64,000 nt of DNA. Source: a virus. Positions within the stretch are counted from its first letter, which is position 1. The number at the start of each line of letters is the position of its first letter. The notes beneath the pieces are model-generated. The model worked only from the letters and a program-made list of their open reading frames with translations, did not search any database and had not been told where the DNA came from. Location of the stretch: positions 1 to 64,000 of IMG/VR virus record IMGVR_UViG_3300027749_000051. One strand, given 5' to 3'. Below are positions 3 to 17,642 of this stretch, in pieces. A program made the position numbers and the translations under genes.

Positions 3-743
3 TCTGGTTCATCAGGAAGTTCTGGTTCAAGTGGTTCTTCAGGAACTAGTGGAACATCTGGATCTTCTGGAACATCAGGAACAAGTGGTTCGTCAGGCAC
101 AAGTGGAACTTCTGGTTCTTCAGGAACTAGTGGAACATCTGGATCTTCAGGTTCAAGTGGTTCTTCAGGTACAAGCGGAAGTTCAGGATCGTCAGGAAGT
201 TCTGGTTCAAGTGGTTCTTCAGGTACAAGTGGAAGTTCTGGATCATCAGGTACAAGTGGAACGGCAACTATTAATAATAACGTAGATAATTATGTAATTA
301 CTGCAACAGGAACTGCCGGAACCATTCAAGGTGAAACAAATATGAGATTTGATGGATCTACCTTGAGTATTACAGGTGATACCACAATGACGGGAGCATT
401 AACCGCGGCATCAAAATCATTTGATATTCCACATCCAACGAAAGATGGATATAGATTAAGATATGGTGTATTGGAAGGTCCTGAACATGGAGTGTATATT
501 AGAGGTTTTGCGATTTCAAATGTTATCGAATTACCTGACTATTGGACGGAATTAGTTCATGAAGATAGTATTACAGTTCAATTAACATCGGTAGGAAAAT
601 CAGATATTGATTACGTTGTTAAAGTTTATGAAAATAAAATATATTTAGATTCATCAACAGGAGAAATCAGTAGTTACTTCTTTGTTCAAGCAGAACGTAA
701 AGACATTGAAAAGGTTCTATTGGAATATAAACCGATAAGGTAA
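3..743 (+). CDS. 5'-truncated fibre protein: (Ser-Gly-Ser/Thr)n collagen-like repeat plus a conserved C-terminal phage fibre domain
   Basis: The frame from nt 3 is open into track ORF 342-743. It has 29 consecutive S-G-[S/T] triplets (3-263) and a C-terminal ASKSFDIPHP...LRYGVLEGPEHGVYIRG motif typical of large-phage fibre C-termini. Confidence 0.75.
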   Translation, partial: SGSSGSSGSSGSSGTSGTSGSSGTSGTSGSSGTSGTSGSSGTSGTSGSSGSSGSSGTSGSSGSSGSSGSSGSSGTSGSSGSSGTSGTATINNNVDNYVITATGTAGTIQGETNMRFDGSTLSITGDTTMTGALTAASKSFDIPHPTKDGYRLRYGVLEGPEHGVYIRGFAISNVIELPDYWTELVHEDSITVQLTSVGKSDIDYVVKVYENKIYLDSSTGEISSYFFVQAERKDIEKVLLEYKPIR

Positions 744-792: not shown

Positions 793-3072
793 TTATAGGG
801 GTAATGAGTTGAAAACTTGTGATGGGGTTATTGATTTTTGGCAAATATGTTGTCTTTCTGTTCCTTTATATACAGGACACCAATCCCAATCTCCAGGATC
901 AAAAGTTAATACAGGGTCATTCCAACATTTAATACAAACATCGTTTGATACCCTTGTAACATTATGTGTACATTCATGGTTATTCTCGCTAAATCCTGCA
1001 ATCATTACTGTCTTTTTACCTAAAGCCCAATTAACCCAAGATAACCCTGAACTTAATCCAATAAAGAAGTCCGCATGAAATAAACAATTCATAACTTCAT
1101 TCCAATCTTTTGTGGTGTTGTTACGAACTCCTTCTATATTATATTCCTTTAATGATAATATCATTACTTCATATCCAATATCTTTTAACATTTTTGATAA
1201 TGACGCCCAGTTTTCAAAAGTCCATTCTTTACATCCCGCTGTTGATTGTGGACCAAATACAACATATTTGTTCTTTATTGGCCTTTTTGTTGGTTTGAAA
1301 TTTAGTTTATAATTAATCTCATTATACTCTAATCCTAATATGTCTGTTGCTAATTTTTGAAGTGGGATAAGATTAACTTGATTTGGATATGAGTCAAATT
1401 TTCTCCATTTTTGATTATCGTCTTTAAACCATCCTAATCTATAAATAACATCGCAAGGTATGGATTGTCCTGGTAATATAAATGCTATATCTTTATAATC
1501 TTCAGACCCTTTAAACCATTCATTATGAAATGTACTTAAGATGACCTTACAATTTTTTTGTTTCATTAGTTCGATTGCGTAAGGAGCCCAAGCAATAGTG
1601 TCACCGACAGCTTTGGTTTCAAAAGATATAAGGACAGTTTTTCCTTCTAATGTAAAGGTGTCAATTATTTGACCATTAACTTTAATTATCCAGGGAATAA
1701 AATACTTTTTAGAACATGATGTCCACATATTATTTGATATGGTATCTGAGAATATAACATCATTCGTTTTACGATTAATGAACTCAACAAAATATTTTTG
1801 ATTATTGTCTCCCTTAATCTCAACTCTTGGACCATCCATATAGGTTATTATGAATTCATTCTCTTTTGTTGGTTTATCTTCTAACCACGACTTCTTATCT
1901 AAAAATTCGTTAATTGTATTGATACCAATTTCGGCAATATGTTCCCAACTAAATTCAGTTCTAATTTCTTCGGATTCTACTAATGCTTTTTGTTTGTATG
2001 ATTGATAGTTTGTTACCACCTCTCTCATTTTTTTTCCTAAATCTTCAAAATCAGGTTCATAATAATTTCCAACAGAGTCGTTAAAGTGACTATACGTACT
2101 TGCATCGACAGGTTTTTCTCCAATGATTTTAACAGGAATACCTCTACCTTCGGCAAACTCTAATTGACCTGAACAATTTGAATAAATTGATGGGGTACCA
2201 CAAGCCATTGCTTCGATAAGGGGTAAGTTCCATCCTTCTGACCTTGCGCATGAAACAAATACATCACAAGATTTTAATAGTTTAATGTAATCTTCTCTTG
2301 GAGGAAAATGTAAAACCTTAATTCTATCATCTTCTAATCCATAATACTTTAATCGTTCTTCAGTTGTTTTCATATTATCTCCTGAAAAAGGATTATCAAC
2401 TGAGACAATTAAATCGACAGGTTCATCTTTATCAAATGTATTTAGGAATGATTCAATAACTTCTTTAATTGATTTTCTATAATCCCATCTGCCAGCCAAG
2501 AAGAACTTCATTCTTCCATCTGATGTTAAAGGATGTGATACTTCTTCAGGGAAAAATGTATTAACATCTACTCCTTCAGGGACAACTTTAATTTTATCGG
2601 GGTTATAACCTTGTGCGATAGAACAATCTCTTTGCCATTTAGATGGAACCCACAGTTCGTCAAATTCTTTTAGTTTATTAAAATATTGTTCTGGTTGTAA
2701 TGTTGATTCCCATACATTGTATGCAATTTTTGGACCAAAATAATTATCATAAAATAAATGATGGTTTGTTTCACATAGTATAATATTAACATCTGGTGCA
2801 AATTCTTTTGATTTGTCCTGATACATTTTATGATTGTTTCTAGATTTGTCTGAATTCCATAAAACTTGTTCATAGAGTAATTTCTTATCTATCTCGTTAA
2901 AATATGACTCTTTGTTGTGTGGTTCGGGATTCATTCCTTCCCACCCATTTCCTACTGTGAAATTTCTAACTTTAATTTGTGCGTGTTTGGATAGATGTCT
3001 AAAAAAATCCCTTGTGTGTTGGTTATATCCTGTATTTCCAACATAAGAACCGTGTGCAAATATTTTTGGCAT
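793..3072 (-). CDS. GT4 (GT-B) glycosyltransferase fused to a TibC/AAH-type (BAHT family) protein O-heptosyltransferase-like domain
   Basis: N-half has the GT4 motif RSEGWNLPLIEAMACGTP. C-half has AVGDTIAW, QSTAGCKEW, FIGLSSGLSWVNWALG and C-x2-C-x15-C-x11-C (CIKC...WCP...IC). Confidence 0.85.
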   Translation of the reverse strand: MPKIFAHGSYVGNTGYNQHTRDFFRHLSKHAQIKVRNFTVGNGWEGMNPEPHNKESYFNEIDKKLLYEQVLWNSDKSRNNHKMYQDKSKEFAPDVNIILCETNHHLFYDNYFGPKIAYNVWESTLQPEQYFNKLKEFDELWVPSKWQRDCSIAQGYNPDKIKVVPEGVDVNTFFPEEVSHPLTSDGRMKFFLAGRWDYRKSIKEVIESFLNTFDKDEPVDLIVSVDNPFSGDNMKTTEERLKYYGLEDDRIKVLHFPPREDYIKLLKSCDVFVSCARSEGWNLPLIEAMACGTPSIYSNCSGQLEFAEGRGIPVKIIGEKPVDASTYSHFNDSVGNYYEPDFEDLGKKMREVVTNYQSYKQKALVESEEIRTEFSWEHIAEIGINTINEFLDKKSWLEDKPTKENEFIITYMDGPRVEIKGDNNQKYFVEFINRKTNDVIFSDTISNNMWTSCSKKYFIPWIIKVNGQIIDTFTLEGKTVLISFETKAVGDTIAWAPYAIELMKQKNCKVILSTFHNEWFKGSEDYKDIAFILPGQSIPCDVIYRLGWFKDDNQKWRKFDSYPNQVNLIPLQKLATDILGLEYNEINYKLNFKPTKRPIKNKYVVFGPQSTAGCKEWTFENWASLSKMLKDIGYEVMILSLKEYNIEGVRNNTTKDWNEVMNCLFHADFFIGLSSGLSWVNWALGKKTVMIAGFSENNHECTHNVTRVSNDVCIKCWNDPVLTFDPGDWDWCPVYKGTERQHICQKSITPSQVFNSLPL

Positions 3073-3135: not shown

Positions 3136-4086
3136 ATGAAAGACCTAATATTAATTACAAATTATTCTCCAGATAGTAACCGGGAGCAATTATTAAGAGA
3201 TCTAGTTAATGATGTTAAAAATGAAAATTATGACATCATGATATCAACACATTCATTTGTTCCTAAAGATATATTTGATAATGTTAATTATGTTATATAT
3301 GATAAAGAAAATTTACTTTTAACTGATATTAATAGTAAAGTTGGATTTTTTTATAAAAATGATAAATTTACAATTAAAAGTACTGAAATATATGGTTTTA
3401 ATCATGCTGTTGCTGTTTTTAAATTACTTTCTTTAGGGTTAGTGAATGCTAAAAATTTGGGATATAAGAAGGTTCATCATTTTGAATATGATAGTAGAAT
3501 TTTAAAGACATTAGAAATTGAGAATAATTCTAAATTAATTGATATACATAGCGTTGTTTTTTATCTACCTACAAATTTACAATTTCCTAACTCACCAATA
3601 TCATTTAATTTAGATATGATATCGGAAGGATGGTTTGATGTTTCAAATAAGAAAATTATGTCATTTATGGAGGGAAATAATACTAAAATGTGTGAACAAT
3701 ATCAACAAACCCTTATAGATGAAATTGGAAATTATTATCAAAAAAAAGTATCTGATCTTGAATCAAATAATATATTAGTTGGAATTAATGTGGCTCCTAT
3801 TAAACATCCGTGGGTGGTATGTGTGTATAATAAAATTACAAATAAATTAATTTTATTTTGTTGGACTACAAATGAAATTAACGATATTGAAGTTAAATTA
3901 ATTGTTAATAATTCTAAATTATCTTATTATATTGTAAAACCTAATTGTTGGATAATAAGAGATATTGATGATATTGATAATATTGAAAATATTTTAATTA
4001 TAGTAAATAATGAAATAAGAAATTACTTAGATATGTCAAAGATAGACAAAGAATATTATAAACTTAAAAATCAAATTATAGAATAA
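3136..4086 (+). CDS. Putative GT-A-like glycosyltransferase; paralog of 8557-9483
   Basis: Rossmann-like start LILITNY; AKNLGYKKVHHFEYD parallels ALNLDYEQFYHMIYD in 8557; lies in the glycosylation cluster. Confidence 0.4.
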   Translation: MKDLILITNYSPDSNREQLLRDLVNDVKNENYDIMISTHSFVPKDIFDNVNYVIYDKENLLLTDINSKVGFFYKNDKFTIKSTEIYGFNHAVAVFKLLSLGLVNAKNLGYKKVHHFEYDSRILKTLEIENNSKLIDIHSVVFYLPTNLQFPNSPISFNLDMISEGWFDVSNKKIMSFMEGNNTKMCEQYQQTLIDEIGNYYQKKVSDLESNNILVGINVAPIKHPWVVCVYNKITNKLILFCWTTNEINDIEVKLIVNNSKLSYYIVKPNCWIIRDIDDIDNIENILIIVNNEIRNYLDMSKIDKEYYKLKNQIIE

Positions 4087-4087
4087 A

Positions 4088-4732
4088 ATGGCACAAGGAG
4101 TACATAGAATCACTCAAGAGTTTGAGGAAGAACTGTCAAAATATACGGGAGCACCACATGCAATCGCATTGGATAATATGAGTAATGCCTTATTTTTGGC
4201 GTTATATTATGAAAAAAACATTAAAAAATCATTGGAGGATAATGTAATTGATTGTCCGTCTAAAACATATCCATCTGTTCCTTGTGAAATTATTCATGCG
4301 GGATTGAAGGTTAACTTTACACCTGTTGAAGGCAAAACAATTAAAGGGGCGTATACCCTATCACCATCCAATGTTGTTGATTCCGCATTAAGATTTACTG
4401 CCGATATGTATGTTCCTAAAACACATATGTGTTTATCATTTACGGGACCATATAAGACTCTAAAACTAAGTAAAGGTGGCGCAATCTTAACTGATGATTA
4501 CCAAGCGATGTTATGGTTTAAACGAGCAAGATTTAGTGGTAGGAGAGAATGTTCATATCATGATGATAATTTTGATATGTTAGGTTGGAATTTCTATATG
4601 ATGCCAGAATTATCTGCAAGAGGGATATTAATGATGAATCAATTTTATAATTTAGACGGGACAAAAAAACATAATGAAGATTTGGAATTGCCTTATCCTG
4701 ATTTATCAAAATATGAAATTTATAAAAAATGA
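4088..4732 (+). CDS. DegT/DnrJ/EryC1/StrS-family PLP-dependent sugar aminotransferase (short form)
   Basis: FEEELSKYTGAPHAIAL..SNALFLAL; SFTGPYKTL (PLP Lys) followed by GGAILTDD; RFSGR and GWNFYM motifs. Only 214 aa. Confidence 0.8.
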   Translation: MAQGVHRITQEFEEELSKYTGAPHAIALDNMSNALFLALYYEKNIKKSLEDNVIDCPSKTYPSVPCEIIHAGLKVNFTPVEGKTIKGAYTLSPSNVVDSALRFTADMYVPKTHMCLSFTGPYKTLKLSKGGAILTDDYQAMLWFKRARFSGRRECSYHDDNFDMLGWNFYMMPELSARGILMMNQFYNLDGTKKHNEDLELPYPDLSKYEIYKK

Positions 4733-5505
4733 AAATAACTCAAACATTAGTCGCACCAGCTGTTAGTTTTTTTAAAAAAAATTTTATTTCAAGATATTCT
4801 TTTAAAGAATATTGTGATATTAACAAACCGTGTGTGTTTTTAGGCGGGAGAGAATTATCTACTCAAATACAAAATCATAAATCGTATAAATTTGTATTTC
4901 TCACAACACCAAATGATTTACCAAATTTTGATATAATAACTAATACCGAAAATTTGTTTATTATTAATATATCTGATGATGTTAGATTAAATTTAAAAAT
5001 ACCTGATAATGTTAAGTGTAAAAATTTGACAATAGAACTTAAAGATTATTCATTATTTCAATCTAATATTTTAGGGGATAAAATATATGCATATACTGGA
5101 TTTAAAAATGGGTGGGGTAATGAATGGAATGTTGAAAAATTAAAACAACTCCAAAAAAAGATTGATTATGAAATAATAACAACAAATCATTTAAATCTTA
5201 ATGATTATTATGACATAAATTATTTAAAAGAAAATTATTACGACAAATCTTTTCTTAATTTAAATTTATCAAATGGTAATGGAATGTCGACAGTTATAGA
5301 GCTTGGATTAATGGGTAGAAAAACAATATTGAATGAAAATTTTTATAAATATCCATGTATTTTAAATTATAAAAATGATGAAGATTTGATTAATTTAATT
5401 AATTATGAGAGTAGTAAAATAGGGATGTTACAGCCATCAATAAATTGTCATACAATAAATGATGAATGGTTAGATATTGATTTTTGGGTTAAAATAGATA
5501 AATAA
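4729..5505 (+). CDS. Hypothetical protein, possibly a GT-B C-terminal-like domain
   Basis: NGNGMSTVIELGLMGRKTI resembles the GT-B donor-binding motif; cluster context. Confidence 0.35.
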   Translation: MKITQTLVAPAVSFFKKNFISRYSFKEYCDINKPCVFLGGRELSTQIQNHKSYKFVFLTTPNDLPNFDIITNTENLFIINISDDVRLNLKIPDNVKCKNLTIELKDYSLFQSNILGDKIYAYTGFKNGWGNEWNVEKLKQLQKKIDYEIITTNHLNLNDYYDINYLKENYYDKSFLNLNLSNGNGMSTVIELGLMGRKTILNENFYKYPCILNYKNDEDLINLINYESSKIGMLQPSINCHTINDEWLDIDFWVKIDK

Positions 5506-5510
5506 TTAAA

Positions 5511-6092
5511 ATGAAAATATCATTATTCGGATATGGTGGACATGCAAGAGAAGTTGCACAACAGATTAATAAATCAATTACATTTTTTGTTGATGATGAA
5601 TATGTTAATGAATTTACTAGACCAATAAGTGAATTTGATCCTGAAGAATATGCTATTATGATAGCAGTTGCGGACTGTGAAGAAAGAAGAAATATTGTTT
5701 TAACGTTACCTAAAGAAACTAATTATTTTACTTTTATACATCCGACCGCTCTGATAATGGATACAAATATAAAAATAGGTGAAGGGAGTTTTATTGGGGC
5801 ATACTCAATTTTAACAACTAATATATTATTAGGAAATCACGCAATCCTGAATCGAGGAAATCATATTGGGCATGATTCAAAGATTGGAGATTATTTTAGT
5901 GCAATGCCGGGATCAATTGTTTCTGGAAATGTTACAATTGGAGATAATGTTTATATGGGAACCAATTCATCAGTTAAAGAAAAAATACAAATTTGCTCAG
6001 ATGTTAAAATCGGTTCAAACGCCACAGTAATTAAAGATATAACAATAAATGGAACTTATGTTGGAGTTCCTAGTCGACTTAAAACTAAATGA
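5511..6092 (+). CDS. NeuD/PglD-family sugar acetyltransferase (left-handed beta-helix)
   Basis: LFGYGGHAREV N-terminus; IHPTA; IGHDSKIGDY hexapeptide repeats; GTYVGVPS. Confidence 0.9.
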   Translation: MKISLFGYGGHAREVAQQINKSITFFVDDEYVNEFTRPISEFDPEEYAIMIAVADCEERRNIVLTLPKETNYFTFIHPTALIMDTNIKIGEGSFIGAYSILTTNILLGNHAILNRGNHIGHDSKIGDYFSAMPGSIVSGNVTIGDNVYMGTNSSVKEKIQICSDVKIGSNATVIKDITINGTYVGVPSRLKTK

Positions 6093-7966
6093 TAAAACAA
6101 ATTGCTTTAGTGGAAGTATGGTTAGGTAAGATACCTGACTATTTTCAATACCATATAGAAACAATAGGGTCATTGTCGTGTGTTGATTTTTACTTTTTTA
6201 CCGACGATAAGAATTATGATTTTTCAAAGATTACTCATAAAAATTTTCATTTAAATTACATTAGCGAAGGTGAGTTTTTGGATAGGTTTAATAGGGTCTC
6301 TAAAGTTAAGATCGATAGAATAACTCATCCAAAAAAAATAATAGATTTCAAGTTATCATATTTTGAAATGTTTTCTGATTATGTTAACTCTTATCGTTAT
6401 GTGGGAATATATGATATTGATACAATGTTTGGAGATATGAATCAAACATTGTTGGATTGTATTAATGACTATGATTTTATATCTATTGGGGATGAGGTTT
6501 TTCATAATAGATTAAGTGGTCCTTTATTGATAGTTCGGAATACTTCAGAGTTTCATGATTTAATGAAAACAGACCGATATTACGAGACATTATTAATGGA
6601 TGACATATATGGTTACGGAGAACAAGAACTATCTGTAATCGCCCATAATAATTATAAGGTTAAGATATTACATTCAATGAATACTGATACAAAGAATGGA
6701 GGTAAAACGACCTATGATGTCTGTTGGAAAGGTGGAAAATTATATTCAGGCGATGAAGAAAAATTAATTTATCATTTCTATCGTAAAGGACATACAACCT
6801 TTCAAAAAGTTGGTAACCAGATTTATGCCAGATATGATAAAAAATTTCTAAATGACTTCTTTTGGGTTTTTGGGTTTACGGAGAATTATTCGGAGGCAGT
6901 ACCACATCTGATGGATTCGATTAATAAATATTCAAATAGAAAGTGTATTATATACACAATAAATTTTGACTATAATATTCCTCAAAAGTTTTTAACTAGT
7001 GAACAGTTTATCTTTAGAAGAATTGAAATTGAGGAAGGTCATAAAGATTATAGAGGTAGAGATGAAAATATTATTAGTTGTAAGCCAAAGTTGATGATTG
7101 ACGTGGTTACTCAATATCCTGATGATAGATTCATATTCATAGATAGTGACATTTATTTAACAACATCTGCTGATGATTTATGTAAACACTTTAATGAGCT
7201 AACTACTTATCCATTAATTAACTCTCATATTCATGATGTCGTTTATCATTCAGGAATAATTGAAGGAGAAAAATGGACAAGTACCGCTCATATTTTAGCA
7301 AAGAAAATTGATGTTGATATTTGCGTATTCCCAAGAAGAAAAACAAATGTAATGCTTTTTGATAACCGGTCAAAATGGTTTTTTGAGGAACAGATTGATG
7401 TGTATGAAAAGTATAAAAATACAGAAAAGGGAATATTTGCATTACACGATGAAGATTCTGCAAATGTTATCTTATCAAAGTATAATCTATATGGATGTAT
7501 ACCTTTATCTGATATTGAGGATTGTAGTGATATTAAATTAGAAACAATTACAGATTTAAATAATCCATTTCATATGACACAGATTTCTCCATCTGTTAGA
7601 TTACCACAAACAGTTAATGATATTGCGGTCTTTCATGGAATGAAAGATATTATCAAATTCCAAGAAATCGAAGAGAATTATGGAAAAAATGTTTTAGATT
7701 GTGAGGAAATTTTAACATATTATAAGGATAATACAATTTTTTTTGAGAAAAATTCATTCTTATCGACAAAGACTTTAAGTGGTAAATTTGATTTTATTGT
7801 AAAAAATAAAGATGGTGTTATTTTACAACAATTATTAAATCAATCTTTAATGAAGTATTGGATTTTTTATATTTCTAATGTTCATTTGGATAAAGGAGAT
7901 TATATTATTGAAATAATAAAAACAAGTGATAAACAAAAAGTTTATAATAATTTAATTAGTGTATGA
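6089..7966 (+). CDS. Two-domain putative glycosyltransferase (DUF6625-like plus GT-A DxD domain)
   Basis: WLGKIPDYF...FFTD...IDFKLSY...GIYDIDTMFGD; second domain CKPKLMID...FIFIDSDIY. Confidence 0.6.
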   Translation: MIKQIALVEVWLGKIPDYFQYHIETIGSLSCVDFYFFTDDKNYDFSKITHKNFHLNYISEGEFLDRFNRVSKVKIDRITHPKKIIDFKLSYFEMFSDYVNSYRYVGIYDIDTMFGDMNQTLLDCINDYDFISIGDEVFHNRLSGPLLIVRNTSEFHDLMKTDRYYETLLMDDIYGYGEQELSVIAHNNYKVKILHSMNTDTKNGGKTTYDVCWKGGKLYSGDEEKLIYHFYRKGHTTFQKVGNQIYARYDKKFLNDFFWVFGFTENYSEAVPHLMDSINKYSNRKCIIYTINFDYNIPQKFLTSEQFIFRRIEIEEGHKDYRGRDENIISCKPKLMIDVVTQYPDDRFIFIDSDIYLTTSADDLCKHFNELTTYPLINSHIHDVVYHSGIIEGEKWTSTAHILAKKIDVDICVFPRRKTNVMLFDNRSKWFFEEQIDVYEKYKNTEKGIFALHDEDSANVILSKYNLYGCIPLSDIEDCSDIKLETITDLNNPFHMTQISPSVRLPQTVNDIAVFHGMKDIIKFQEIEENYGKNVLDCEEILTYYKDNTIFFEKNSFLSTKTLSGKFDFIVKNKDGVILQQLLNQSLMKYWIFYISNVHLDKGDYIIEIIKTSDKQKVYNNLISV

Positions 7967-8556
7967 GTAGAGAAATAATCATGAGAAAATTTCAGGAATT
8001 GTCAAATATTCCTTCTGATATAAATGAACATCTGGAAACATTTAGAAGATATACTGAAGAATGTGATATTGTTATTGAGATGGGTGTGAGAAAAATAGTT
8101 AGCACTTGGGCATTTTTGGCGGGAAATCCGAAAAAATTAATTAGTTTGGATTTATATAATCCAACACATTTTGGGGGTAATTTACAAGAAGTGTATGATG
8201 CGGTATCAACAACGGATATTGATTTTTCTTTTGTTGAACAAGATTCTCTAACATATAATATTGATACCTGTGATTTATTATTTTTAGATACATGGCATGA
8301 TTTTTTACAATTAAAAAAAGAACTAACAAGACATCATAATCAAGTTAAAAAATATATTATTTTCCATGATACCGTGAGTTATGGTTATTCTGATGAAGAT
8401 TTAAATATTTCAGGTCTTGAAAATGAAATTGAAACGAATTTACCAAAAGGATTGTGTGCTGCCATTGAAGAATTTTTATTCCATAATAAAAACTGGATAA
8501 TGTGGGAGAAAAAACCAAATAATAATGGGATAACAGTTTTGAAAAAAATTTATTAA
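7963..8556 (+). CDS. Class I SAM-dependent methyltransferase (Methyltransf_24-like)
   Basis: IEMGVRKIVST; DLLFLDTWH; YIIFHDT. Confidence 0.8.
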   Translation: MSREIIMRKFQELSNIPSDINEHLETFRRYTEECDIVIEMGVRKIVSTWAFLAGNPKKLISLDLYNPTHFGGNLQEVYDAVSTTDIDFSFVEQDSLTYNIDTCDLLFLDTWHDFLQLKKELTRHHNQVKKYIIFHDTVSYGYSDEDLNISGLENEIETNLPKGLCAAIEEFLFHNKNWIMWEKKPNNNGITVLKKIY

Positions 8557-9483
8557 ATGAAAAAAATCTCATTAATAAGTAGTTTTTGTGACACACAGGA
8601 AAAATTAGATATTCTTGAAAAGAATATTAAAATTATTAAATCACATAATATTGATGTTATAGTTATTAGCCCATTTTATTTGTCAAAAAATATCGTTGAA
8701 TTGTGTGATTATTTTTTTATGACTAAAGATAATCCTGTATTTGAATGGCCTGAACGGGCGATGTTTTATTGGCAGATGTTTTCAACAGACACTAAGAACT
8801 ATAGAGTCACAACAACATATCCTGATTATGGATATGCTGGATTATCGCAGGTTAAACAATTAAGTGAGATTGCACTTAATTTAGATTATGAACAATTTTA
8901 TCATATGATTTATGATTTAAAAATTGATGATAATGTTATTGATGGATTTAATTCAGATAAAATTTGCTCCGTTTATCCGTCCAAGAGAGAAGAAATAATA
9001 TGGACAGTTGGTTTACACTATATGATTTTTAATAAAGAAAATTTAAAAAATTTCACATCGTATATAACCAAAGAGAATTATTTAGATACTAAGGATTTAG
9101 ACGCTTTTGCTTGGTTACATAGTCATCAAAAAAATATTAATTATGCAATTGAACCAATACCTGTTGAAGATGAAATATACTATTATCAAAATCATGACTT
9201 TCTTAATTACTCGCCAATTGAAAATTTAAAATTTTTTATTGATAAAAATTATGAGATAGATACAAATGTTAAATTATTTTTCTATGGTAATGAGGAATTA
9301 AAAAATATTAAATTAACTGTGGGTGATGTTGAATCTATTCATACTGTTAATGATTGTTATATAATTGACTTAGGGTTTGATAAATTTAATATCCAAGAAG
9401 TGAAATTAGAATATGATTCAATAACTTACGATTTAACTAAAATAATTCATAAAATTAAACATAACGGACTATACGAGATATGA
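8557..9483 (+). CDS. Putative GT-A-like glycosyltransferase; paralog of 3136-4086
   Basis: Shares N-terminal layout and the NLxY..HxxYD motif with 3136. Confidence 0.4.
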   Translation: MKKISLISSFCDTQEKLDILEKNIKIIKSHNIDVIVISPFYLSKNIVELCDYFFMTKDNPVFEWPERAMFYWQMFSTDTKNYRVTTTYPDYGYAGLSQVKQLSEIALNLDYEQFYHMIYDLKIDDNVIDGFNSDKICSVYPSKREEIIWTVGLHYMIFNKENLKNFTSYITKENYLDTKDLDAFAWLHSHQKNINYAIEPIPVEDEIYYYQNHDFLNYSPIENLKFFIDKNYEIDTNVKLFFYGNEELKNIKLTVGDVESIHTVNDCYIIDLGFDKFNIQEVKLEYDSITYDLTKIIHKIKHNGLYEI

Positions 9484-10025
9484 TAGAAAATATTCATTTA
9501 TGGCACGCAGACAGGGGAACTTATTTTGACCGAAATGTTAACATAATTTCTTGGAGTGACCAATACAAAATACATGTCGGGAAATATTGTTCGATTGGAA
9601 GAGATTGTAATTTTTTCTTACATGCAAATCATAGGCCAGATTGGATAACAACATCCTCACAATTATGGGGACCAGTTACACCTGAAACTGCTGATTTACA
9701 TATGGGTATGGGACATCCTTCTTGTAAGGGTGATATTATTGTTGGTAATGATGTGTGGATTGGTGCAAAATCTACAATAATGTCTGGCGTTAAAATTGGA
9801 GACGGAGCAATTATTGCTGCAGGAGCATTAGTAACTAAAGATGTATTACCTTATTCTATTGTTGGAGGAAACCCTGCGAAACATTTAAAGTTTAGATTTA
9901 TGGAAACACAAATTGAGTCATTATTGAAAATCGCTTGGTGGAATTGGACAGAAGATAGGATTAAAACAGAAGCCATGAATATGTGGTCAGATAAAATAGA
10001 TGAATTTATTGATAAACATTTATGA
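9480..10025 (+). CDS. CatB/Vat-like hexapeptide O-acetyltransferase
   Basis: IHVGKYCSIG; KGDIIVGNDVWIG; PYSIVGGNPAK; IAWWNW. Confidence 0.9.
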   Translation: MIENIHLWHADRGTYFDRNVNIISWSDQYKIHVGKYCSIGRDCNFFLHANHRPDWITTSSQLWGPVTPETADLHMGMGHPSCKGDIIVGNDVWIGAKSTIMSGVKIGDGAIIAAGALVTKDVLPYSIVGGNPAKHLKFRFMETQIESLLKIAWWNWTEDRIKTEAMNMWSDKIDEFIDKHL

Positions 10026-10864
10026 TTAAAATAGATTATTCCGAAGGAAATATAAAAATGAATACCAGTGATTTAAGAGGGATATTCAAATCAGAACAAT
10101 TACCTTTAAAGTTCAAAATAAAAAAAGTTGTATCTAAAGAGGTGATATGGGAAACAAATTTAAATAGTAATATGTGGGCAATATTTCCATCAAATGAGAT
10201 CAATGATGTTGTTGTTGAGGATGCACAAGGAAATTTTATTTATCAATATTATTGGGATGTATTACAACATGGGTCGGTATTTTATAAATCATTGTGGATG
10301 TATTGTAAGGGACTAATTAATGATGGAAAAAAACCAAAAGGATTAGTTGTTGGAACACATGATGGAGAGTTCGGTGAATGGGTCCCATTGGTTAAAAATT
10401 TTATGTCGGATATGTTATTGGTTGAGGGGAGTGAAAAACAATTCAATAAATTATCCCAAAACTTTAAGGGAAAACAAGGTTTGTCATTTTTAAATGAGTT
10501 AATAACAACAGATGGGTCTGAAGTTGAATTTTTTGAAGGTGGCGCAGGATATACAAACTCAATTGTTAAACGGGTTATTGATCATTGGGAAACAGAAGAG
10601 ATACATTCATCGAAAAGAAAATCGACCAGCATAAATAATTTAATTAAAAATAATCTTGGTGGTAAAGTTGATTGGATACACTTAGATGTTGAAGGACTTG
10701 ATGCTAAATTATTAATGTCTTTAAACGAAGAATATATTCCTAATTTTATAATATTCGAAGACTTCAATCTATTAGTGGATGAAAATAAAGAAATAACTGA
10801 GTGGTTTAGTTTACGAGGATTTAACCTACATTCTGAGGGTGGGATTTGTATGGCAAAAAAATGA
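10022..10864 (+). CDS. FkbM-family methyltransferase with an N-terminal extension
   Basis: VVGTHDGEFGEW; LLVEG; WIHLDVEGLD; IIFE. Confidence 0.75.
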   Translation: MIKIDYSEGNIKMNTSDLRGIFKSEQLPLKFKIKKVVSKEVIWETNLNSNMWAIFPSNEINDVVVEDAQGNFIYQYYWDVLQHGSVFYKSLWMYCKGLINDGKKPKGLVVGTHDGEFGEWVPLVKNFMSDMLLVEGSEKQFNKLSQNFKGKQGLSFLNELITTDGSEVEFFEGGAGYTNSIVKRVIDHWETEEIHSSKRKSTSINNLIKNNLGGKVDWIHLDVEGLDAKLLMSLNEEYIPNFIIFEDFNLLVDENKEITEWFSLRGFNLHSEGGICMAKK

Positions 10865-11199: not shown

Positions 11200-14004
11200 A
11201 TGTATAGTATAAGTTGGTATTTTGATAGTGGTGGTGTTGGTGATTCTCTTGTAGTAGAACAAAATGGGATTGTTGTTCTTAATTGGACAGCAACAGGTTC
11301 AGGAGTACTAACAGGATGGAACCCTGGAGATACTATTGACATAACGGTTAATCCTGGTAATAGAAATTATTCTCATCTTATATATAACGACTATACGGAG
11401 ACTCAATTCGAGCCAACAGCCTGTTATTTTGGAGGAACGGTGAGTGGAGATGGAAATATTTCTGCGGCTACTGATAATAACGACTATCTTCCAACTCCAA
11501 CTCCAACTCCAACAAATGCTGCATCACCAACACAAACTCCGACCAATACTGCGACACCGACTATTACTCCAACAAATACTACAACACCGACTATTACTCC
11601 AAGTGCCGGCAACCTTCTTCAATTCCAAGATTGTGCGAATAATCTAAACATATTTAGATTTGCTGATGTAAATTTATCTTTAACTTTAGGTGAAACCTAT
11701 TTGATTACAAATAGCAATGAATTTTCTGGATGTGCTACGGTTGTTAGTGATACAGGAGTAGGGTTAATTTATAATGGAGCGGGTGTATATTTTACTTTAA
11801 CGTCAGGGTGTGCAGACAATATGTGTCCACAAAATAGTAGTATTGCTGCTGAATTATATAAATGTTCTGATGGGTCAATATTTTATGGACTTGTCCAACA
11901 AGACACTGCATTTGTTGGTGCTGCCTATGTCTATAATGATGAGTGTTATAGTTTTGTTGAGTTTTCGGGACCAGGTGGGCCTGATTTAGGAAACCCTGAT
12001 TATAATGATTGTCTCCGTTGTAATGCTGTTCCAACGCCAACACCTAATCCTACGCCAACAGTTACACCAACGGTATCGAGTTCTCCTATACCTTGTGCAT
12101 ATAGTTCTTTTTGTTTTTATACTTCATTACCATCATTATCAGGATATAACGGTAACTATTCTATTGCAGGAACTTATGGGTCGATGTTTTATTATACTGG
12201 TGACAGTATTGATGATTCTGTTATTTATTATACAGGGGATTATTGGTGTTTAAGTGACACATATACACCGGGAGGAAGTTGTATTTTAAGGGGAGCATCT
12301 CCTTGTTATTCAGCATGTCCTGATATTTCAGTTAATGATTTTACGGGAGGTATTTGTCCGACACCAACACCTACTCCGGTAGATTGTAATACTTTTGATT
12401 TTAACGCCTATTTTGATTGTGATTGGGAACCTCTTCCAACACCAAGTGTAAGTATAGATTGCGCAGATGCTGCATTTGATTATTATGTTAATACATTAAC
12501 ACCAACTCCTACTCCGACTAATGGTTCTTGTGGTAGTGTTTCAGTCTCATTTGGTATGACTGCATATACACCAAGTATTACTGCTACTCCTACACCAACA
12601 AGTACAAGTTCAATTATACCTGTACCTGTGGCAGGACAAGTTACTTTTGAAATGTTAAATGAGACCTTTAATTGCGTTTCAGTAAAAGTCTTAACAAATT
12701 GTGAGACAGGTGTTGAATACTATGTATGTGGAGGATTGGTGTATAACAATACACCAATTGTTGTTGGTATTACAATGTTAATGTTAATTAATGGTCAAAC
12801 AGTTTGTGTGACTTATACAAGAAATGATAAAAACTTATCATCAAATTCTCTTATTGGGGAAATAACACAAATCTACGCAGCTTGTGGTTCATGTTCGACA
12901 GTTCCTACACCAACACCAACGCCAACAAATACTACTACTCCAACAATGACTCCGACTACAACACCAACAAATACTATGACACCAACTCCATCTGCAACTG
13001 TTGGTACAATAGCATTAACACCAACGCCAACAAATACTACCACACCAACTATGACTCCAACACCATCAGTAACTCCGAACTATGTTTATGTTTATCAGAG
13101 TTGTGCACCGATTTCTCCTAATGTTAATCCAACTCAAGTTGTTCAAACACAACCAGTTTCATTTAACGCATATCCTGAAAATGTCTTTAAAGATAGTTCA
13201 GGAAATTGTTGGAGATATGTTGGTAGATATTCAAGTAACTATATTGCACCATCAGGAATTGTTGTTATAACTTATAGTGGTAATTACTTTGCAAGTGCGC
13301 CTAATTACATATACTCATCGTGTATTATTTGTCAGGGTGGAGCTCGTCCAGTGGTAGATGTTCCAGAAGTAGTTACAGGAGTATTCACAGATGTGACTGT
13401 GTTTAGTGCGACATTATATGGTGCGGTAGTTAGTGATCATAACTCACCTGTAACAGAGTGGGGAATTCTTATTGGTATATCACCAGAATTAACATATGGG
13501 GCTGCGGGTGTTACCTATATAAGTGCTCCGAGTCCTGGAATTGGAACATATTCTGTTGACGCAACAGGACTTGTTGAAGGTGTTACCTATTATTATAGGG
13601 CGACAGCCGTTAACAGTGTTGGTAGGGGATATGGGTTTACTGTTGGTTCATTTACGACACTTAATTTAAATAGTTGGGCAACTATTAATGTTAATAATAA
13701 CAGTTCGTCTTATAGTGACAATATGTTTAACATTCTCGTTGGTGGACAAACAGTGATGGGAATTCCGGCAACAATACATGGCGGAGAAACGGCTATTGGG
13801 TCAACAATTTATGTTGGATCGACAACTCTTACTCTTGGATATATTACATTGTACACCTTTGACGGACAAATTACAATCACTGATAATTCAACTAATCTTG
13901 TGATTTATAGTAGGACAATATCAAGAAATGGGACTATCAATACTAATCTAACCATTCCATATCCTCAGGGTATAACAATAACAATGTCGGATATTCCACA
14001 ATAA
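11200..14004 (+). CDS. Large virion-type protein with Pro/Thr linkers, Cys-rich modules and an FN3-like domain
   Basis: Repeated PTPTPT/TPTNT linkers between Cys-rich blocks; SATLYG...GLVEGVTYYYRATAVNSVGRGYG is FN3-like. Confidence 0.65.
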   Translation: MYSISWYFDSGGVGDSLVVEQNGIVVLNWTATGSGVLTGWNPGDTIDITVNPGNRNYSHLIYNDYTETQFEPTACYFGGTVSGDGNISAATDNNDYLPTPTPTPTNAASPTQTPTNTATPTITPTNTTTPTITPSAGNLLQFQDCANNLNIFRFADVNLSLTLGETYLITNSNEFSGCATVVSDTGVGLIYNGAGVYFTLTSGCADNMCPQNSSIAAELYKCSDGSIFYGLVQQDTAFVGAAYVYNDECYSFVEFSGPGGPDLGNPDYNDCLRCNAVPTPTPNPTPTVTPTVSSSPIPCAYSSFCFYTSLPSLSGYNGNYSIAGTYGSMFYYTGDSIDDSVIYYTGDYWCLSDTYTPGGSCILRGASPCYSACPDISVNDFTGGICPTPTPTPVDCNTFDFNAYFDCDWEPLPTPSVSIDCADAAFDYYVNTLTPTPTPTNGSCGSVSVSFGMTAYTPSITATPTPTSTSSIIPVPVAGQVTFEMLNETFNCVSVKVLTNCETGVEYYVCGGLVYNNTPIVVGITMLMLINGQTVCVTYTRNDKNLSSNSLIGEITQIYAACGSCSTVPTPTPTPTNTTTPTMTPTTTPTNTMTPTPSATVGTIALTPTPTNTTTPTMTPTPSVTPNYVYVYQSCAPISPNVNPTQVVQTQPVSFNAYPENVFKDSSGNCWRYVGRYSSNYIAPSGIVVITYSGNYFASAPNYIYSSCIICQGGARPVVDVPEVVTGVFTDVTVFSATLYGAVVSDHNSPVTEWGILIGISPELTYGAAGVTYISAPSPGIGTYSVDATGLVEGVTYYYRATAVNSVGRGYGFTVGSFTTLNLNSWATINVNNNSSSYSDNMFNILVGGQTVMGIPATIHGGETAIGSTIYVGSTTLTLGYITLYTFDGQITITDNSTNLVIYSRTISRNGTINTNLTIPYPQGITITMSDIPQ

Positions 14005-14007
14005 TAG

Positions 14008-14014
14008 TATTTAT
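14008..14014 (+). promoter_or_regulatory. TATTTAT putative late promoter
   Basis: Ends 5 nt before ATG 14020. Confidence 0.5.
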
Positions 14015-14019
14015 CTAAA

Positions 14020-14226
14020 ATGACAACTCAAGTAACGATAACATCAGTAACTGCAAATACTCCAGTGGATATATTCTATTGTGATTCTATGGGGGCGAGC
14101 TGTGTTAATGTCGCAACTGTCTCAACATTTCCGTATGTTTTTTTAGTCCCATCTCCATATTCTGAAGAAAATTTTATTATTAAGATAGCGGATACTCAAG
14201 GGTGTGTTGTTGAAGAACAGGTATAG
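14020..14226 (+). CDS. Small beta-rich structural protein; paralog of 20948-21169
   Basis: TPVDIFYCD...C...FPYVFLVP...IKIADTQGC aligns with SPYNIYVCQ...C...IPYQFDVP...LKVIDANNC. Confidence 0.6.
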   Translation: MTTQVTITSVTANTPVDIFYCDSMGASCVNVATVSTFPYVFLVPSPYSEENFIIKIADTQGCVVEEQV

Positions 14227-14316
14227 TCCCTATGTTACCTTGTTGAGAACTTGTCACTAAGTAATTTCCTTCTTTCAAATAAATTTTCGTAATCTGAAAA
14301 TAAGTGTTATTTCATA

Positions 14317-14323
14317 TATTTAT
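14317..14323 (+). promoter_or_regulatory. TATTTAT putative late promoter
   Basis: Ends 16 nt before ATG 14340. Confidence 0.55.
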
Positions 14324-14339
14324 GATTAAATAGAACTTT

Positions 14340-15335
14340 ATGGCAACGACTAGAGCATTTGCATATAATATAAGCTCACCAATTTTGGGAACTCAACAAG
14401 TTGGGGATTTGGCAATTGGAGTACCAACAAGTGGATTTGCATCAACTGGATTACCTTGGTGGGAAGGCCCTGATGAGGAGTTAGGGTATGTCATTGCAGA
14501 GCCTGTTTCAGGGAATACACAACCAACACCAATATCAGGAGTTACAGCCTCTTTGGGATTCTATAGGTCAGATTTTCTAACCGATAATTCTTTTGTTGAA
14601 CTTGCAAATGTTGTTTCAGGACAAAATTTTACTGGAGCAACCGAAGCAAGTATATGGTTAACAAATCACGGATATTGGAATTCATATCCTGCTCCTGTTT
14701 TGTATTTGGATGCTGGTGATATTAATAGTTATCCTGGCACAGGAACTGTTTGGACTGATTTAATTGGAGGAAAAGTATTTGACTTAATAAATGGACCAGG
14801 TTATGATCCAGGAAATGGAGGTAAGATTTACTTTTACGCCGCAGGTGGACAATATGCTAATTGTTCAACAAGTTTACCGTCATTACCGACATTTACAACA
14901 TCTGTTTGGCATTATTGGGATGGTACTAATACAGGATCATTACCTTGTCTATTATCTGAAGTGTATATTGGAGGTGGAATTAACTTCCTTCTTGGTGCTC
15001 CTGGAGGTGTTGTTGCTCAAGGAGGGTATTTCAATGGCAATTTTCAACTCTCACCTCAATTTAGTTTAACACCAAATACTTGGTATAATATTGTTGTTAG
15101 TTGTGATTCGAGTCAAGTTGTTAACATTTATTTAAACAATACATTAATTAGTTCAACATCTACAACAGGTCCTCAACCATATTCAAGTGGGGCAGGAATA
15201 AACCTAATGAAGAGATGGGATGGTTCTGAGAATTGGGGTGGTTACTTATCAACCGTTGGAATATATGATAAAGCATTAACATCAGGACAAATTTCTGGAA
15301 TTTATAACACAACTAAATCAAGATACGGATTGTAA
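14340..15335 (+). CDS. Virion protein: shared N-terminal module plus LamG/concanavalin-A-like lectin domain
   Basis: MATTRAFAYN...WWEGPDEELGYVIA; VLYLDAGD..SYPGTGTVWTDL; WYNIVVS; IYDKALT...YNTTKSRYGL. Confidence 0.75.
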   Translation: MATTRAFAYNISSPILGTQQVGDLAIGVPTSGFASTGLPWWEGPDEELGYVIAEPVSGNTQPTPISGVTASLGFYRSDFLTDNSFVELANVVSGQNFTGATEASIWLTNHGYWNSYPAPVLYLDAGDINSYPGTGTVWTDLIGGKVFDLINGPGYDPGNGGKIYFYAAGGQYANCSTSLPSLPTFTTSVWHYWDGTNTGSLPCLLSEVYIGGGINFLLGAPGGVVAQGGYFNGNFQLSPQFSLTPNTWYNIVVSCDSSQVVNIYLNNTLISSTSTTGPQPYSSGAGINLMKRWDGSENWGGYLSTVGIYDKALTSGQISGIYNTTKSRYGL

Positions 15336-15340
15336 TATAA

Positions 15341-16981: not shown

Positions 16982-16995
16982 AAAAATAGATTAAA

Positions 16996-17493
16996 ATGGC
17001 AAATACAAAAATTAGTGCATTACCACTATACACAGGAGATACCACGGGTGCTTATCTTGTTATGGATAATAGTGGACTTACTCAAACTTATAAAGTTACT
17101 AAAGAGACCTTATTGGGTGGAAGTCCAATTGTACCAGTAACAGGAAGTTGGACTTTATCAACAGGTGCAAATACTGTTAGTTTTACAGTTACTGCAGGTC
17201 AATCATATGTAATGTGGGTAAATGGAAATATTCCAAACGGTATTGTTAATTGGAATGCAACATTAACACTATCAAACTCAAACGTACCTGTAATAGGTGT
17301 ACAATATGGTTGGTATTATGTTGCAGGAAACGCTTTGGTGTTAACATCAATACCAAGTCAGATAGTTGGGACTGCGGGAACTATTAGTACCTCATCACCA
17401 GCGGTTTCAAATTCAAACACCTTTACATTTGGTATAACAAACAACAGTGGTACATCTCAAGTAGTTTACTACGGATATACTAAAGTAAGTTAA
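16996..17493 (+). CDS. Small fibre-associated structural protein
   Basis: MANTKISALP N-terminus common to phage fibre proteins; beta-rich, Ser/Thr/Gly-rich. Confidence 0.55.
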   Translation: MANTKISALPLYTGDTTGAYLVMDNSGLTQTYKVTKETLLGGSPIVPVTGSWTLSTGANTVSFTVTAGQSYVMWVNGNIPNGIVNWNATLTLSNSNVPVIGVQYGWYYVAGNALVLTSIPSQIVGTAGTISTSSPAVSNSNTFTFGITNNSGTSQVVYYGYTKVS

Positions 17494-17494
17494 T

Positions 17495-17590: not shown

Positions 17591-17603
17591 TTAGATTACT
17601 AAT

Positions 17604-17632: not shown

Positions 17633-17642
17633 GATACCAATG

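What the first reader, a model, noticed from the sequence alone, without database searches (positions are those of the whole stretch)
793..3072. Phage-encoded TibC/AAH-type protein O-glycosyltransferase fused to a GT4
Seen: the C-half (about 793-1860) carries AVGD, STAGCKEW, FIGLSSGLSW and four Cys spaced C-x2-C-x15-C-x11-C. Established: the E. coli autotransporter heptosyltransferases TibC/AAH are iron-binding dodecamers that heptosylate Ser residues of adhesins, using a catalytic Asp, a Lys and four Fe-binding Cys with (as I recall) this same spacing. Inference: this phage protein glycosylates phage proteins, and the fused GT4 could extend the first sugar. It lies tail-to-tail with a fibre whose repeat is all Ser/Thr/Gly, an obvious candidate acceptor. 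The donor sugar is unknown; no ADP-heptose genes are in this window.
Basis: partly seen in the sequence, partly recalled or inferred. Interest (0 to 1): 0.88.

Follow-up and report, generated by a model that had tools for sequence, protein, structure and literature searches.

The report
Phage TibC-like enzyme beside collagen-like fibre
A large uncultured phage encodes a true relative of TibC, the E. coli enzyme that sugar-coats adhesins, fused to a second sugar transferase and placed next to a proline-free Gly-Ser/Thr collagen-like fibre gene; it most likely sugar-coats that fibre, but nothing has been tested at the bench.

Summary
ORF 793-3072 (-) encodes a 759-aa fusion. Residues 1-400 are a GT4 glycosyltransferase with an intact EX7E motif. 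Residues 405-759 are a genuine TibC/Aah-family (BAHT) domain: TIGR04414 scores 215 bits (cut-off 200), PDB 4RAP matches at E 8e-39, and the AF2 model matches TibC at TM 0.86 against about 0.5 for WaaC/WaaF.

The catalytic Asp, the Thr/Lys/Trp donor contacts and the four iron-finger Cys are invariant in 197 phage-type homologues. Two TibC features are missing. The adenine-contacting Arg-286 is always V/I/T/A/S. The dodecamer-forming thumb is about 10 residues shorter.

On a tree the protein sits in a branch separate from the autotransporter enzymes. Members of that branch, in phages and in ordinary bacterial chromosomes, lie next to Ser/Thr-rich collagen-like genes in 22 of 31 loci. Classic loci do so in 0 of 8 (Fisher p = 0.0004). 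The neighbouring fibre is therefore the probable acceptor.

The donor is open. This 125-kb record (about 42% complete) has no heptose genes. Two relatives carry operons resembling the ADP-heptose pathway.

I found no paper on this pairing. This scan has already noted the same system on other DNA (at least 83 genomes).

The parts
793..3072 (-). Whole gene: 759-aa GT4 + BAHT (TibC/Aah-like) fusion; stop codon at 793-795
1873..3072 (-). N-half (residues 1-400): GT4 retaining-type GT-B glycosyltransferase; EX7E motif SEGWNLPLIE at residues 279-287 (nt 2212-2238)
   Evidence: Pfam Glycos_transf_1 62.6 bits. AF2 pLDDT 90.5. Foldseek top hits are GT4 enzymes: 3OY2 (TM 0.70), MshA, GlgM, PglA and SdgB. 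Motif position.
796..1860 (-). C-half (residues 405-759): BAHT-family domain with N-terminal beta-barrel, GT-B catalytic core and Cys4 finger
   Evidence: TIGR04414 215.1 bits against a cut-off of 200. PDB 4RAP E 8.2e-39. AF2 pLDDT 95.9. Foldseek match to TibC TM 0.86.
1600..1602 (-). Asp-491, aligned to the TibC catalytic base Asp-110
   Evidence: invariant in 197 of 197 phage-type sequences
1228..1242 (-). Thr-611 and Lys-615, aligned to TibC Thr-226 and Lys-230 (beta-phosphate contacts)
1093..1095 (-). Val-660 at the position of TibC Arg-286 (adenine N1 contact): not conserved
1036..1053 (-). Ser-674 (position of TibC Pro-300 / Aah Ser-294, contact to heptose O6/O7) and Trp-679 (TibC Trp-305, contact to heptose O4)
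841..936 (-). Cys-713, 716, 732 and 744, aligned to the TibC iron-finger Cys-339, 342, 358 and 370
3..743 (+). 3' part of a collagen-like fibre gene, cut by the contig end. 28 Pro-free Gly-[ST]-[ST] triplets (nt 3-263) followed by a 160-aa C-terminal domain. Proposed acceptor.
   Evidence: The homologue in relative L002 has at least 357 such triplets.
3136..10864 (+). Divergently transcribed low-GC (27.5%) sugar-modification island (context). It holds a PseC/DegT-like fragment, a PglD-like and a second hexapeptide acetyltransferase, DUF6625 and several unknowns. Its content varies between relatives.

Best explanation
The gene encodes a cytoplasmic, two-domain protein O-glycosyltransferase of a large tailed phage. 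The C-terminal domain is a bona fide BAHT (TibC/Aah) family member, an inverting GT9-type fold with a Cys4 metal finger. It uses Asp-491 as the base to transfer a sugar from a nucleotide-sugar donor onto Ser/Thr hydroxyls. The donor is most likely a nucleotide-activated heptose. The acceptor is most likely the proline-free Gly-Ser/Thr-Ser/Thr collagen-like repeat of the fibre encoded next door, modified in the host cytoplasm before virion assembly. The fused GT4 (retaining) domain either extends that first sugar or glycosylates further sites. The variable neighbouring sugar genes supply or tailor later sugars. Shown here: family membership, fold, conservation of catalytic and metal residues, and gene-neighbourhood association across phages and bacteria. 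Inferred: acceptor, donor, order of action, and the biological role (stabilising or shielding the fibre).
For: Family and fold. TIGR04414 scores 215 bits, above its curated cut-off. TibC is the top PDB hit by sequence (E 8e-39) and by fold (TM 0.86, against about 0.5 for WaaC/WaaF).

Functional residues, as defined in PMC4358343. D110, T226, K230, W305 and the four Cys are conserved in the window protein and in all 122 fusions; the 74 stand-alone homologues show a few exceptions, including at the Cys positions.

Acceptor. The window's only Pro-free S/T collagen-like ORF in 125 kb lies 50 bp from the gene. Among 13 IMG/VR relatives with at least 7.5 kb on both flanks, 11 have a large collagen-like ORF within 8 kb, in differing orientations. 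In genome contigs, 22 of 31 non-classic BAHT loci have an S/T collagen-like ORF, often directly adjacent. These include the Methylobacter and Arenicellales chromosomes. The figure for classic autotransporter-type loci is 0 of 8 (Fisher p = 0.0004). The tree separates the two classes with 100% SH-aLRT support.

Donor. Relative G002, whose enzyme is 78% identical, has an operon of three adjacent genes. Their best NCBIfam hits are rfaE_dom_I, rfaE_dom_II and ADP-heptose 6-epimerase. The 93%-complete 252-kb relative G001 has kinase-like and epimerase-like genes too. Both enzymes carry Val at the Arg-286 position.

GT4 domain. The EX7E motif is intact and invariant, and the fold is GT4.
Against: There is no biochemical evidence of any kind.

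Arg-286 is the residue that PMC4358343 uses to explain ADP specificity, and its Ala mutant loses activity. It is V/I/T/A/S in all 197 phage-type sequences.

This record has no GmhA, PfkB, cytidylyltransferase-like, rfaE_dom_II or heptose-epimerase gene. The complete Microcystis phage Mel-JY01 genome has no SIS_2, rfaE_dom_I-like or heptose-epimerase-like match. The heptose-like genes of relatives score below the curated cut-offs, and no GmhA was found in them.

Gene adjacency is not proof of a substrate. Two of the 13 well-flanked viral loci and 9 of the 31 non-classic genome loci show no collagen-like ORF. The window also holds Pro/Thr mucin-like proteins at 11.2-23.3 kb that could be acceptors instead. 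In one sister clade the neighbouring collagen is Pro-rich, not S/T-rich.
Confidence: 0.6

Rival explanations
1. Same enzyme and same fibre acceptor, but the BAHT domain transfers a sugar other than ADP-heptose, from a different nucleotide or a different sugar. The nucleotide-base pocket has been remodelled.
For: Arg-286 (adenine N1 contact) is replaced by V/I/T/A/S in every phage-type sequence. No heptose-pathway genes lie in this 125-kb record. The complete Mel-JY01 genome has no SIS_2, rfaE_dom_I-like or heptose-epimerase-like match. The record does carry other sugar-nucleotide genes, such as UDP-galactopyranose mutase at 77445-78551.
Against: Trp-305 (heptose O4 contact) and a Ser at the Aah Ser-294 position (heptose O6/O7 contact) are retained. 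Two relatives whose enzymes also have Val at position 286 carry heptose-pathway-like operons. The record is only about 42% complete, and the host may supply ADP-heptose.
Confidence: 0.3
2. The acceptors are not the collagen-like repeat but the Pro/Thr-rich mucin-like stalk proteins (11200-23310) or other virion proteins. Adjacency to the fibre gene would then reflect only a shared 'fibre module' location.
For: Five ORFs at 11.2-23.3 kb have windows of 55-60% Ser/Thr. In a sister clade the gene sits beside tail sheath and tube genes and a Pro-rich rather than S/T-rich collagen.
Against: Bacterial members of the same branch sit in two-gene cassettes with a small S/T collagen-like protein and no phage or mucin-like genes, for example Methylobacter. 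The association survives changes of order and orientation.
Confidence: 0.15
3. The enzyme acts on the host rather than on the virion. It would modify host surface proteins or LPS core, for superinfection exclusion or receptor masking, like an LPS heptosyltransferase or a moron.
For: Pfam also reports Glyco_transf_9. PHROGs files the GT4 part under 'moron, auxiliary metabolic gene and host takeover'.
Against: WaaC/WaaF are far weaker matches (TIGR02193 scores 24.5 bits against a cut-off of 185; TM about 0.5). The TibC-specific beta-barrel and Cys4 finger are present. No autotransporter lies nearby. Linkage to fibre genes is consistent.
Confidence: 0.05

Closest known systems
TibC-TibA and Aah-AIDA-I of E. 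coli (bacterial autotransporter heptosyltransferases, BAHT; TIGR04414; PDB 4RAP/4RB4; PMC4358343)
   Same: Same family by curated HMM and by fold. Same beta-barrel + GT-B + Cys4-finger architecture. Catalytic Asp, Thr/Lys phosphate contacts, Trp sugar contact and all four Cys are conserved. The enzyme is encoded next to a long, repetitive, Ser-rich surface protein that it would modify in the cytoplasm at many sites.
   Different: About 30% identity. It lies on the other side of a 100%-supported split in the tree. Arg-286 is absent. The thumb hairpin that builds the dodecamer is shortened by about 10 residues. It is fused to a GT4 domain and encoded by a phage. The neighbour is a collagen-like Gly-Ser/Thr repeat, not a beta-helical autotransporter.
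LPS core heptosyltransferases WaaC/WaaF (GT9)
   Same: GT9-type GT-B catalytic core (Pfam PF01075 hit).
   Different: Weak matches only. They lack the N-terminal barrel and the Cys4 finger, and their acceptor is a lipid-linked glycan.
GT4 enzymes that O-glycosylate Ser-rich repeats (SdgA/SdgB of S. aureus; GtfA/GtfB of serine-rich repeat adhesins). Their biology is from my own knowledge; SdgB structures appear among the fold hits.
   Same: GT4 fold, with a dense Ser-repeat acceptor. This shows that a GT4 domain can itself initiate protein O-glycosylation.
   Different: They are only generic GT4 matches (ranks 41-47). There is no specific sequence relationship, and they are not fused to a BAHT domain.
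Glycosylated collagen-like proteins: BclA of the Bacillus anthracis exosporium (Thr-linked oligosaccharides on GXT triplets) and Mimivirus collagen modified by L230 (own knowledge, not checked here)
   Same: A microbial or viral collagen-like fibre carries dense O-glycans installed by dedicated enzymes encoded nearby.
   Different: Unrelated enzyme families. Those repeats contain Pro or hydroxylysine, whereas here the repeat is Pro-free with Ser/Thr at both X and Y.
Virion O-glycosylation in actinobacteriophages (mycobacteriophage capsid and tail-tube glycosylation; own knowledge, not found in the held library by my searches)
   Same: Phage-encoded glycosyltransferases modify the phage's own structural proteins. 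GT4-like genes of Streptomyces and Rhodococcus phages are the next tblastn hits of the N-half.
   Different: No BAHT domain, no collagen-like acceptor, and different hosts.

Membership tests
BAHT (TibC/Aah autotransporter O-heptosyltransferases, TIGR04414) | Scores above the curated family HMM cut-off | tested here: met
   215.1 bits against a cut-off of 200, E 1.4e-63, covering profile positions 16-370 of 374
BAHT (TibC/Aah autotransporter O-heptosyltransferases, TIGR04414) | Protomer fold: N-terminal beta-barrel + GT-B catalytic domain + inserted metal finger | tested here: met
   AF2 pLDDT 95.9, with eight N-terminal strands followed by a Rossmann-like core. Foldseek match to TibC TM 0.86, E 2e-31, over 385 columns.
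BAHT (TibC/Aah autotransporter O-heptosyltransferases, TIGR04414) | Catalytic base Asp-110 and donor contacts Thr-226, Lys-230 and Trp-305 | tested here: met
   D491, T611, K615 and W679. Invariant or near-invariant in 197 phage-type sequences.
BAHT (TibC/Aah autotransporter O-heptosyltransferases, TIGR04414) | Arg-286 contacting adenine N1 (the basis given for ADP specificity; conserved in BAHTs) | tested here: not met
   Val-660 here. V/I/T/A/S in 197 of 197 phage-type sequences. Arg in all 12 classic bacterial sequences.
BAHT (TibC/Aah autotransporter O-heptosyltransferases, TIGR04414) | Four Cys of the 1Fe-0S iron finger (C339/342/358/370) | tested here: met
   C713/716/732/744 with identical spacing. 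Actual iron binding cannot be tested with these tools.
   The K230-W305 interval is 63-64 residues, against 74 in classic BAHTs. The second thumb strand (IPWGAEDFTG) is deleted. No hairpin appears in the model at that place. Oligomeric state itself was not testable.
BAHT (TibC/Aah autotransporter O-heptosyltransferases, TIGR04414) | Paired with an autotransporter adhesin substrate gene | tested here: not met
   The neighbour is a collagen-like fibre. 0 of 8 classic loci, against 22 of 31 loci of this branch, have S/T collagen-like neighbours.
BAHT (TibC/Aah autotransporter O-heptosyltransferases, TIGR04414) | Transfers heptose from ADP-heptose to Ser | not testable with these tools
   Indirect evidence only: heptose-pathway-like operons in two relatives and none in this record.
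GT9 LPS heptosyltransferases (WaaC/WaaF) | Family HMM above cut-off, and best structural match | tested here: not met
   TIGR02193 scores 24.5 bits against a cut-off of 185.3. TM 0.44-0.51.
GT4 glycosyltransferases (N-half) | Pfam Glycos_transf_1 above cut-off, GT-B fold, EX7E motif | tested here: met
   62.6 bits against a cut-off of 26.4. Foldseek GT4 hits at E 1e-13 to 1e-15. E279 and E287 are invariant in 27 relatives.

The most novel reading that the evidence does not exclude
BAHT-like enzymes of this branch form an unrecognised, widespread protein-glycosylation system, shared by large aquatic phages and diverse bacteria, that is dedicated to proline-free Gly-Ser/Thr-Ser/Thr collagen-like repeats. 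Dense O-glycosylation (heptose plus GT4-added sugar) would take the place of hydroxyproline in making such a repeat fold into a stable, protease-resistant triple-helical fibre. The rod-like substrate would be modified processively by an oligomeric enzyme, as TibA is by the TibC ring.
Probability: 0.25. Interest if true: 0.85.

Novelty: new variant of a known kind. Interest (0 to 1): 0.7.

Why it matters
BAHTs are known only as virulence-associated partners of proteobacterial autotransporters. Here a sister branch with thousands of metagenomic members is tied to a completely different acceptor class, proline-free collagen-like repeats. It occurs in phages, usually fused to a GT4 domain, and in free-living bacteria.

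If confirmed, this would show three things. First, many abundant aquatic phages glycosylate their own fibres. Second, there is a testable answer to how Pro-free Gly-Ser/Thr triplets can form stable fibres. Third, there is a compact two-domain enzyme for dense O-glycosylation of a simple repeat.

It also bears on phage-host recognition, and on the resistance of virions to proteases and grazing in natural waters.

Tried and rejected
Neighbourhoods were taken from IMG/VR and GTDB contigs instead.
- Megablast of 20 kb of the window against isolate phages found nothing.
- PHROG scans of 20 large ORFs gave no usable taxonomy and no terminase or capsid call. The host remains unknown.
- Literature searches found no paper on a phage or collagen-associated BAHT. 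The terms were TibC + phage, autotransporter heptosyltransferase + bacteriophage, collagen-like + heptosyltransferase, a phage virion O-glycosylation set, and Mel-JY01. The library lacks most subscription journals.
- A PDB sequence search with the fibre's C-terminal domain gave only chance-level hits.
- WaaC/WaaF-type LPS heptosyltransferase was rejected.
- I first read the loss of Arg-286 as evidence against heptose. I lowered that reading after finding heptose-pathway-like operons in relatives whose enzymes also have Val there.
Full report
**What is there.** ORF 793-3072 on the minus strand encodes 759 residues. Pfam finds GT4 families over residues about 100-390 (Glycos_transf_1, E 4.4e-17). 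Over residues 412-706 it finds Glyco_transf_9 plus a weak TibC_1st hit. NCBIfam TIGR04414, 'autotransporter strand-loop-strand O-heptosyltransferase', scores 215.1 bits over residues 411-756, above its curated cut-off of 200. The LPS heptosyltransferase I model reaches only 24.5 bits against a cut-off of 185. By sequence, the only strong PDB relative is TibC (4RAP E 8.2e-39, residues 405-754 against TibC 23-380).

**Context.** The window is the first 64 kb of a 125,154-bp IMG/VR virus record at 32.6% GC, which CheckV estimates to be 42% complete. It carries collagen/Peptidase_S74 fibres, an SbcC-like nuclease and other phage genes. In relatives the gene lies next to tail sheath genes.

**Fold.**
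- With an 89-sequence alignment, the C-half folds at pLDDT 95.9.
- Foldseek ranks TibC chains first (TM 0.86, E 2e-31).
- WaaC, WaaF and another GT9 follow at TM 0.44-0.51 and E 1e-8 to 1e-10.
- The N-half folds at pLDDT 90.5 as a GT-B GT4 enzyme. The nearest structure is a chlorella-virus glycosyltransferase (3OY2, TM 0.70), followed by MshA, GlgM, PglA, BshA and SdgB.
- Its EX7E motif (E279...E287) is invariant in 27 relatives.

**Functional residues.** The TibC paper (PMC4358343) names these residues:
- Asp-110 as catalytic base;
- Thr-226 and Lys-230 on the beta-phosphate;
- Trp-305 on heptose O4;
- Arg-286 on adenine N1, given as the basis of ADP specificity;
- Pro-300 (Ser-294 in Aah) at heptose O6/O7;
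- Cys-339/342/358/370 holding the iron;
- a beta-hairpin thumb (Phe-265/Val-266) that links dimers into the dodecamer.

I aligned the window protein with 121 other fusions, 74 stand-alone metagenomic homologues, Mel-JY01 and four annotated bacterial BAHTs. This gives D491, T611, K615, W679 and C713/716/732/744, conserved in the window protein and in all 122 fusions; the stand-alone forms show a few exceptions, including at the Cys positions. S674 is as in Aah.

Two features fail. The Arg-286 position is Val here and V/I/T/A/S in all 197 phage-type sequences, while it is Arg in the classic bacterial enzymes (12 sequences). The segment between K230 and W305 is 63-64 residues instead of 74, because the second thumb strand (IPWGAEDFTG) is deleted. 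The protein is thus a true family member by HMM, fold and catalytic apparatus. Neither ADP specificity nor the dodecameric ring can be assumed.

**Distribution.** The fusion is abundant. 3010 proteins of 417-1329 aa match the C-half at E <= 1e-10, most of them about 756-760 aa with the same GT4 + GT9 Pfam pair. A further 1035 shorter proteins match, including stand-alone forms on contigs of 100-173 kb. The closest isolate is Microcystis phage Mel-JY01. Its 1226-aa CDS, deposited as 'methyltransferase FkbM', aligns at 44% identity over 99% of the query and has GT4 and TibC-like halves with an insert between them. Some relatives carry an FkbM methyltransferase domain between the halves (982 aa).

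**Acceptor.**
- *In the record.* The window's gene is convergent with ORF 3-743, 50 bp away. The visible part of that ORF is 28 Gly-[ST]-[ST] triplets followed by a 160-aa C-terminal domain. It is the only Pro-free S/T collagen-like ORF in the 125-kb record.
- *In viral contigs.* 11 of the 13 IMG/VR relatives with at least 7.5 kb on both flanks have a large collagen-like ORF within 8 kb. It lies upstream on the same strand, or downstream and convergent, depending on the lineage. Many are Pro-free S/T arrays of 100-640 triplets (S about 75%, T about 18%).
- *In genome contigs.* I sorted the BAHT homologues of GTDB genome contigs by the Arg-286 position and thumb length. 22 of 31 non-classic loci contain an S/T-rich collagen-like ORF, frequently directly adjacent. 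All eight classic loci (Arg present, 74-residue segment; Paraburkholderia, Acetobacter, Bradyrhizobium and others) contain none (Fisher p = 0.0004).
- *In bacterial chromosomes.* In a complete Methylobacter chromosome the pair is a two-gene cassette. A 281-aa protein with an apparent N-terminal signal peptide (read by eye, no predictor run) and GTSGTNGTSG repeats is followed by the enzyme, among housekeeping genes.
- *On the tree.* A maximum-likelihood tree puts the 12 classic enzymes on one side of a branch with 100% SH-aLRT support. All collagen-associated bacterial and phage forms fall on the other side, and the window protein lies deep inside a phage-fusion clade. The rows are related, so the counts are not fully independent.

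The association persists across phyla, across phage and cell, and across rearrangements. This makes the collagen-like repeat the best-supported acceptor.

**Donor.** The 125-kb record has no SIS_2/GmhA, PfkB, cytidylyltransferase-like, rfaE_dom_II or heptose-epimerase match.
- Relative G002, whose enzyme is 78% identical, has an operon of a cupin, a 101-aa ORF, a 133-aa nucleotidyltransferase, a 246-aa PfkB kinase and a 272-aa epimerase.
- Best NCBIfam hits for the last three are rfaE_dom_II (104 bits), rfaE_dom_I (133 bits) and ADP-glyceromanno-heptose 6-epimerase (182 bits). All are below the curated cut-offs.
- The 252-kb, 93%-complete relative G001 has rfaE_dom_I-like and epimerase-like genes within 6 kb of each other.
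- The G002 operon region has no counterpart in this record, although flanking regions are syntenic.
- Both relatives' enzymes carry Val at the Arg-286 position, so loss of Arg-286 does not exclude a heptose donor.
- No SIS_2, rfaE_dom_I-like or heptose-epimerase-like gene was found in the complete Mel-JY01 genome.

I put nucleotide-heptose at roughly even odds for this particular phage, supplied by the host or by the missing part of the genome.

**Mechanism proposed.** During infection the fibre protein and the enzyme meet in the cytoplasm, where nucleotide sugars are available. This is how TibC acts on TibA before secretion (PMC4358343). The BAHT domain (inverting) places the first sugar on Ser/Thr of the triplets. 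The GT4 domain (retaining) then adds a second sugar or modifies further sites. The divergent, low-GC, highly variable island at 3136-10864 may tailor further sugars. It holds a PseC/DegT-like fragment, two acetyltransferases, DUF6625 and several unknowns. The order of action, the oligomeric state and the role of the glycan (helix stabilisation, protease shielding or adhesion) are inference.

**Novelty.** No paper in the held library links BAHTs to phages or to collagen-like proteins, though that library is incomplete. Public annotation pipelines already name these proteins 'autotransporter strand-loop-strand O-heptosyltransferase', so family membership is not new. The acceptor class, the separate branch and the phage setting are new. 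This scan has already flagged and followed up the same system on other DNA: 118 notes in at least 83 genomes, with concordant verdicts. My conclusions rest on the tests cited above, not on those notes.

Noticed in passing
L024:218-14471 (also L007, L028, L047, L053): A sister clade of the fusion gene sits in a different module. The order is: a Pro-rich collagen-like gene (P 25-37% of X/Y), a 786-aa GT4 + GT25 + OGFOD2-like protein, a 204-aa 2OG-Fe(II) oxygenase (PF13640), two unknowns, sometimes an FkbM methyltransferase, the fusion, a methyltransferase, then tail sheath and tube. It looks like a collagen hydroxylation-plus-glycosylation toolkit.
   Followed up: partly
L154:5490-8088 (record G002, 40.5-43.1 kb): An operon resembling the ADP-heptose pathway in the closest large relative: cupin, 101-aa ORF, rfaE_dom_II-like, rfaE_dom_I-like PfkB and heptose-epimerase-like. 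All scores are below curated cut-offs and no GmhA or GmhB was recognised. The cupin might replace the isomerase. The region is absent from this record.
   Followed up: partly
G000 75033-78551 (L070:11033-14548): A second sugar locus outside the window: a GT2-like 415-aa protein, a 391-aa unknown and a UDP-galactopyranose mutase (about 60% identical to Glf of Streptococcus phages). At the syntenic place, relative G002 has different genes, including a glycerol-3-phosphate cytidylyltransferase-like protein.
   Followed up: partly
L090:6938-9122 (Methylobacter sp. complete chromosome); also L088, L089, L095: Bacterial two-gene cassettes of a small collagen-like protein and a BAHT-like enzyme, among housekeeping genes and with no prophage context visible. 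In L090 the collagen-like protein has an apparent N-terminal signal peptide (read by eye) and GTSGTNGTSG repeats.
   Followed up: partly
window 4088-4732 (+): A 214-aa ORF matches only the N-terminal quarter of DegT/PseC-type aminotransferases (profile positions 26-98 of 360). It is 91% conserved in relative L002, so it is a kept short form and not a random fragment.
   Followed up: no
L006:1112-4257 and L048:8001-11145: The match to the fusion protein spans about 3.1 kb instead of 2.3 kb. In L048 the reading frame closes after 250 aa. This may be an insertion (intron, intein or extra domain) or a split gene.
   Followed up: no
L073:4542-4615 (G000 about 124.5 kb): ARAGORN calls a tRNA-Phe with the unusual anticodon AAA.
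   Followed up: no
window 11200-23310 (+): Five ORFs have Thr/Pro stalks (TPTNT-type, up to 60% Ser/Thr in 40-aa windows). They are alternative O-glycan acceptors next to the sugar island.
   Followed up: no
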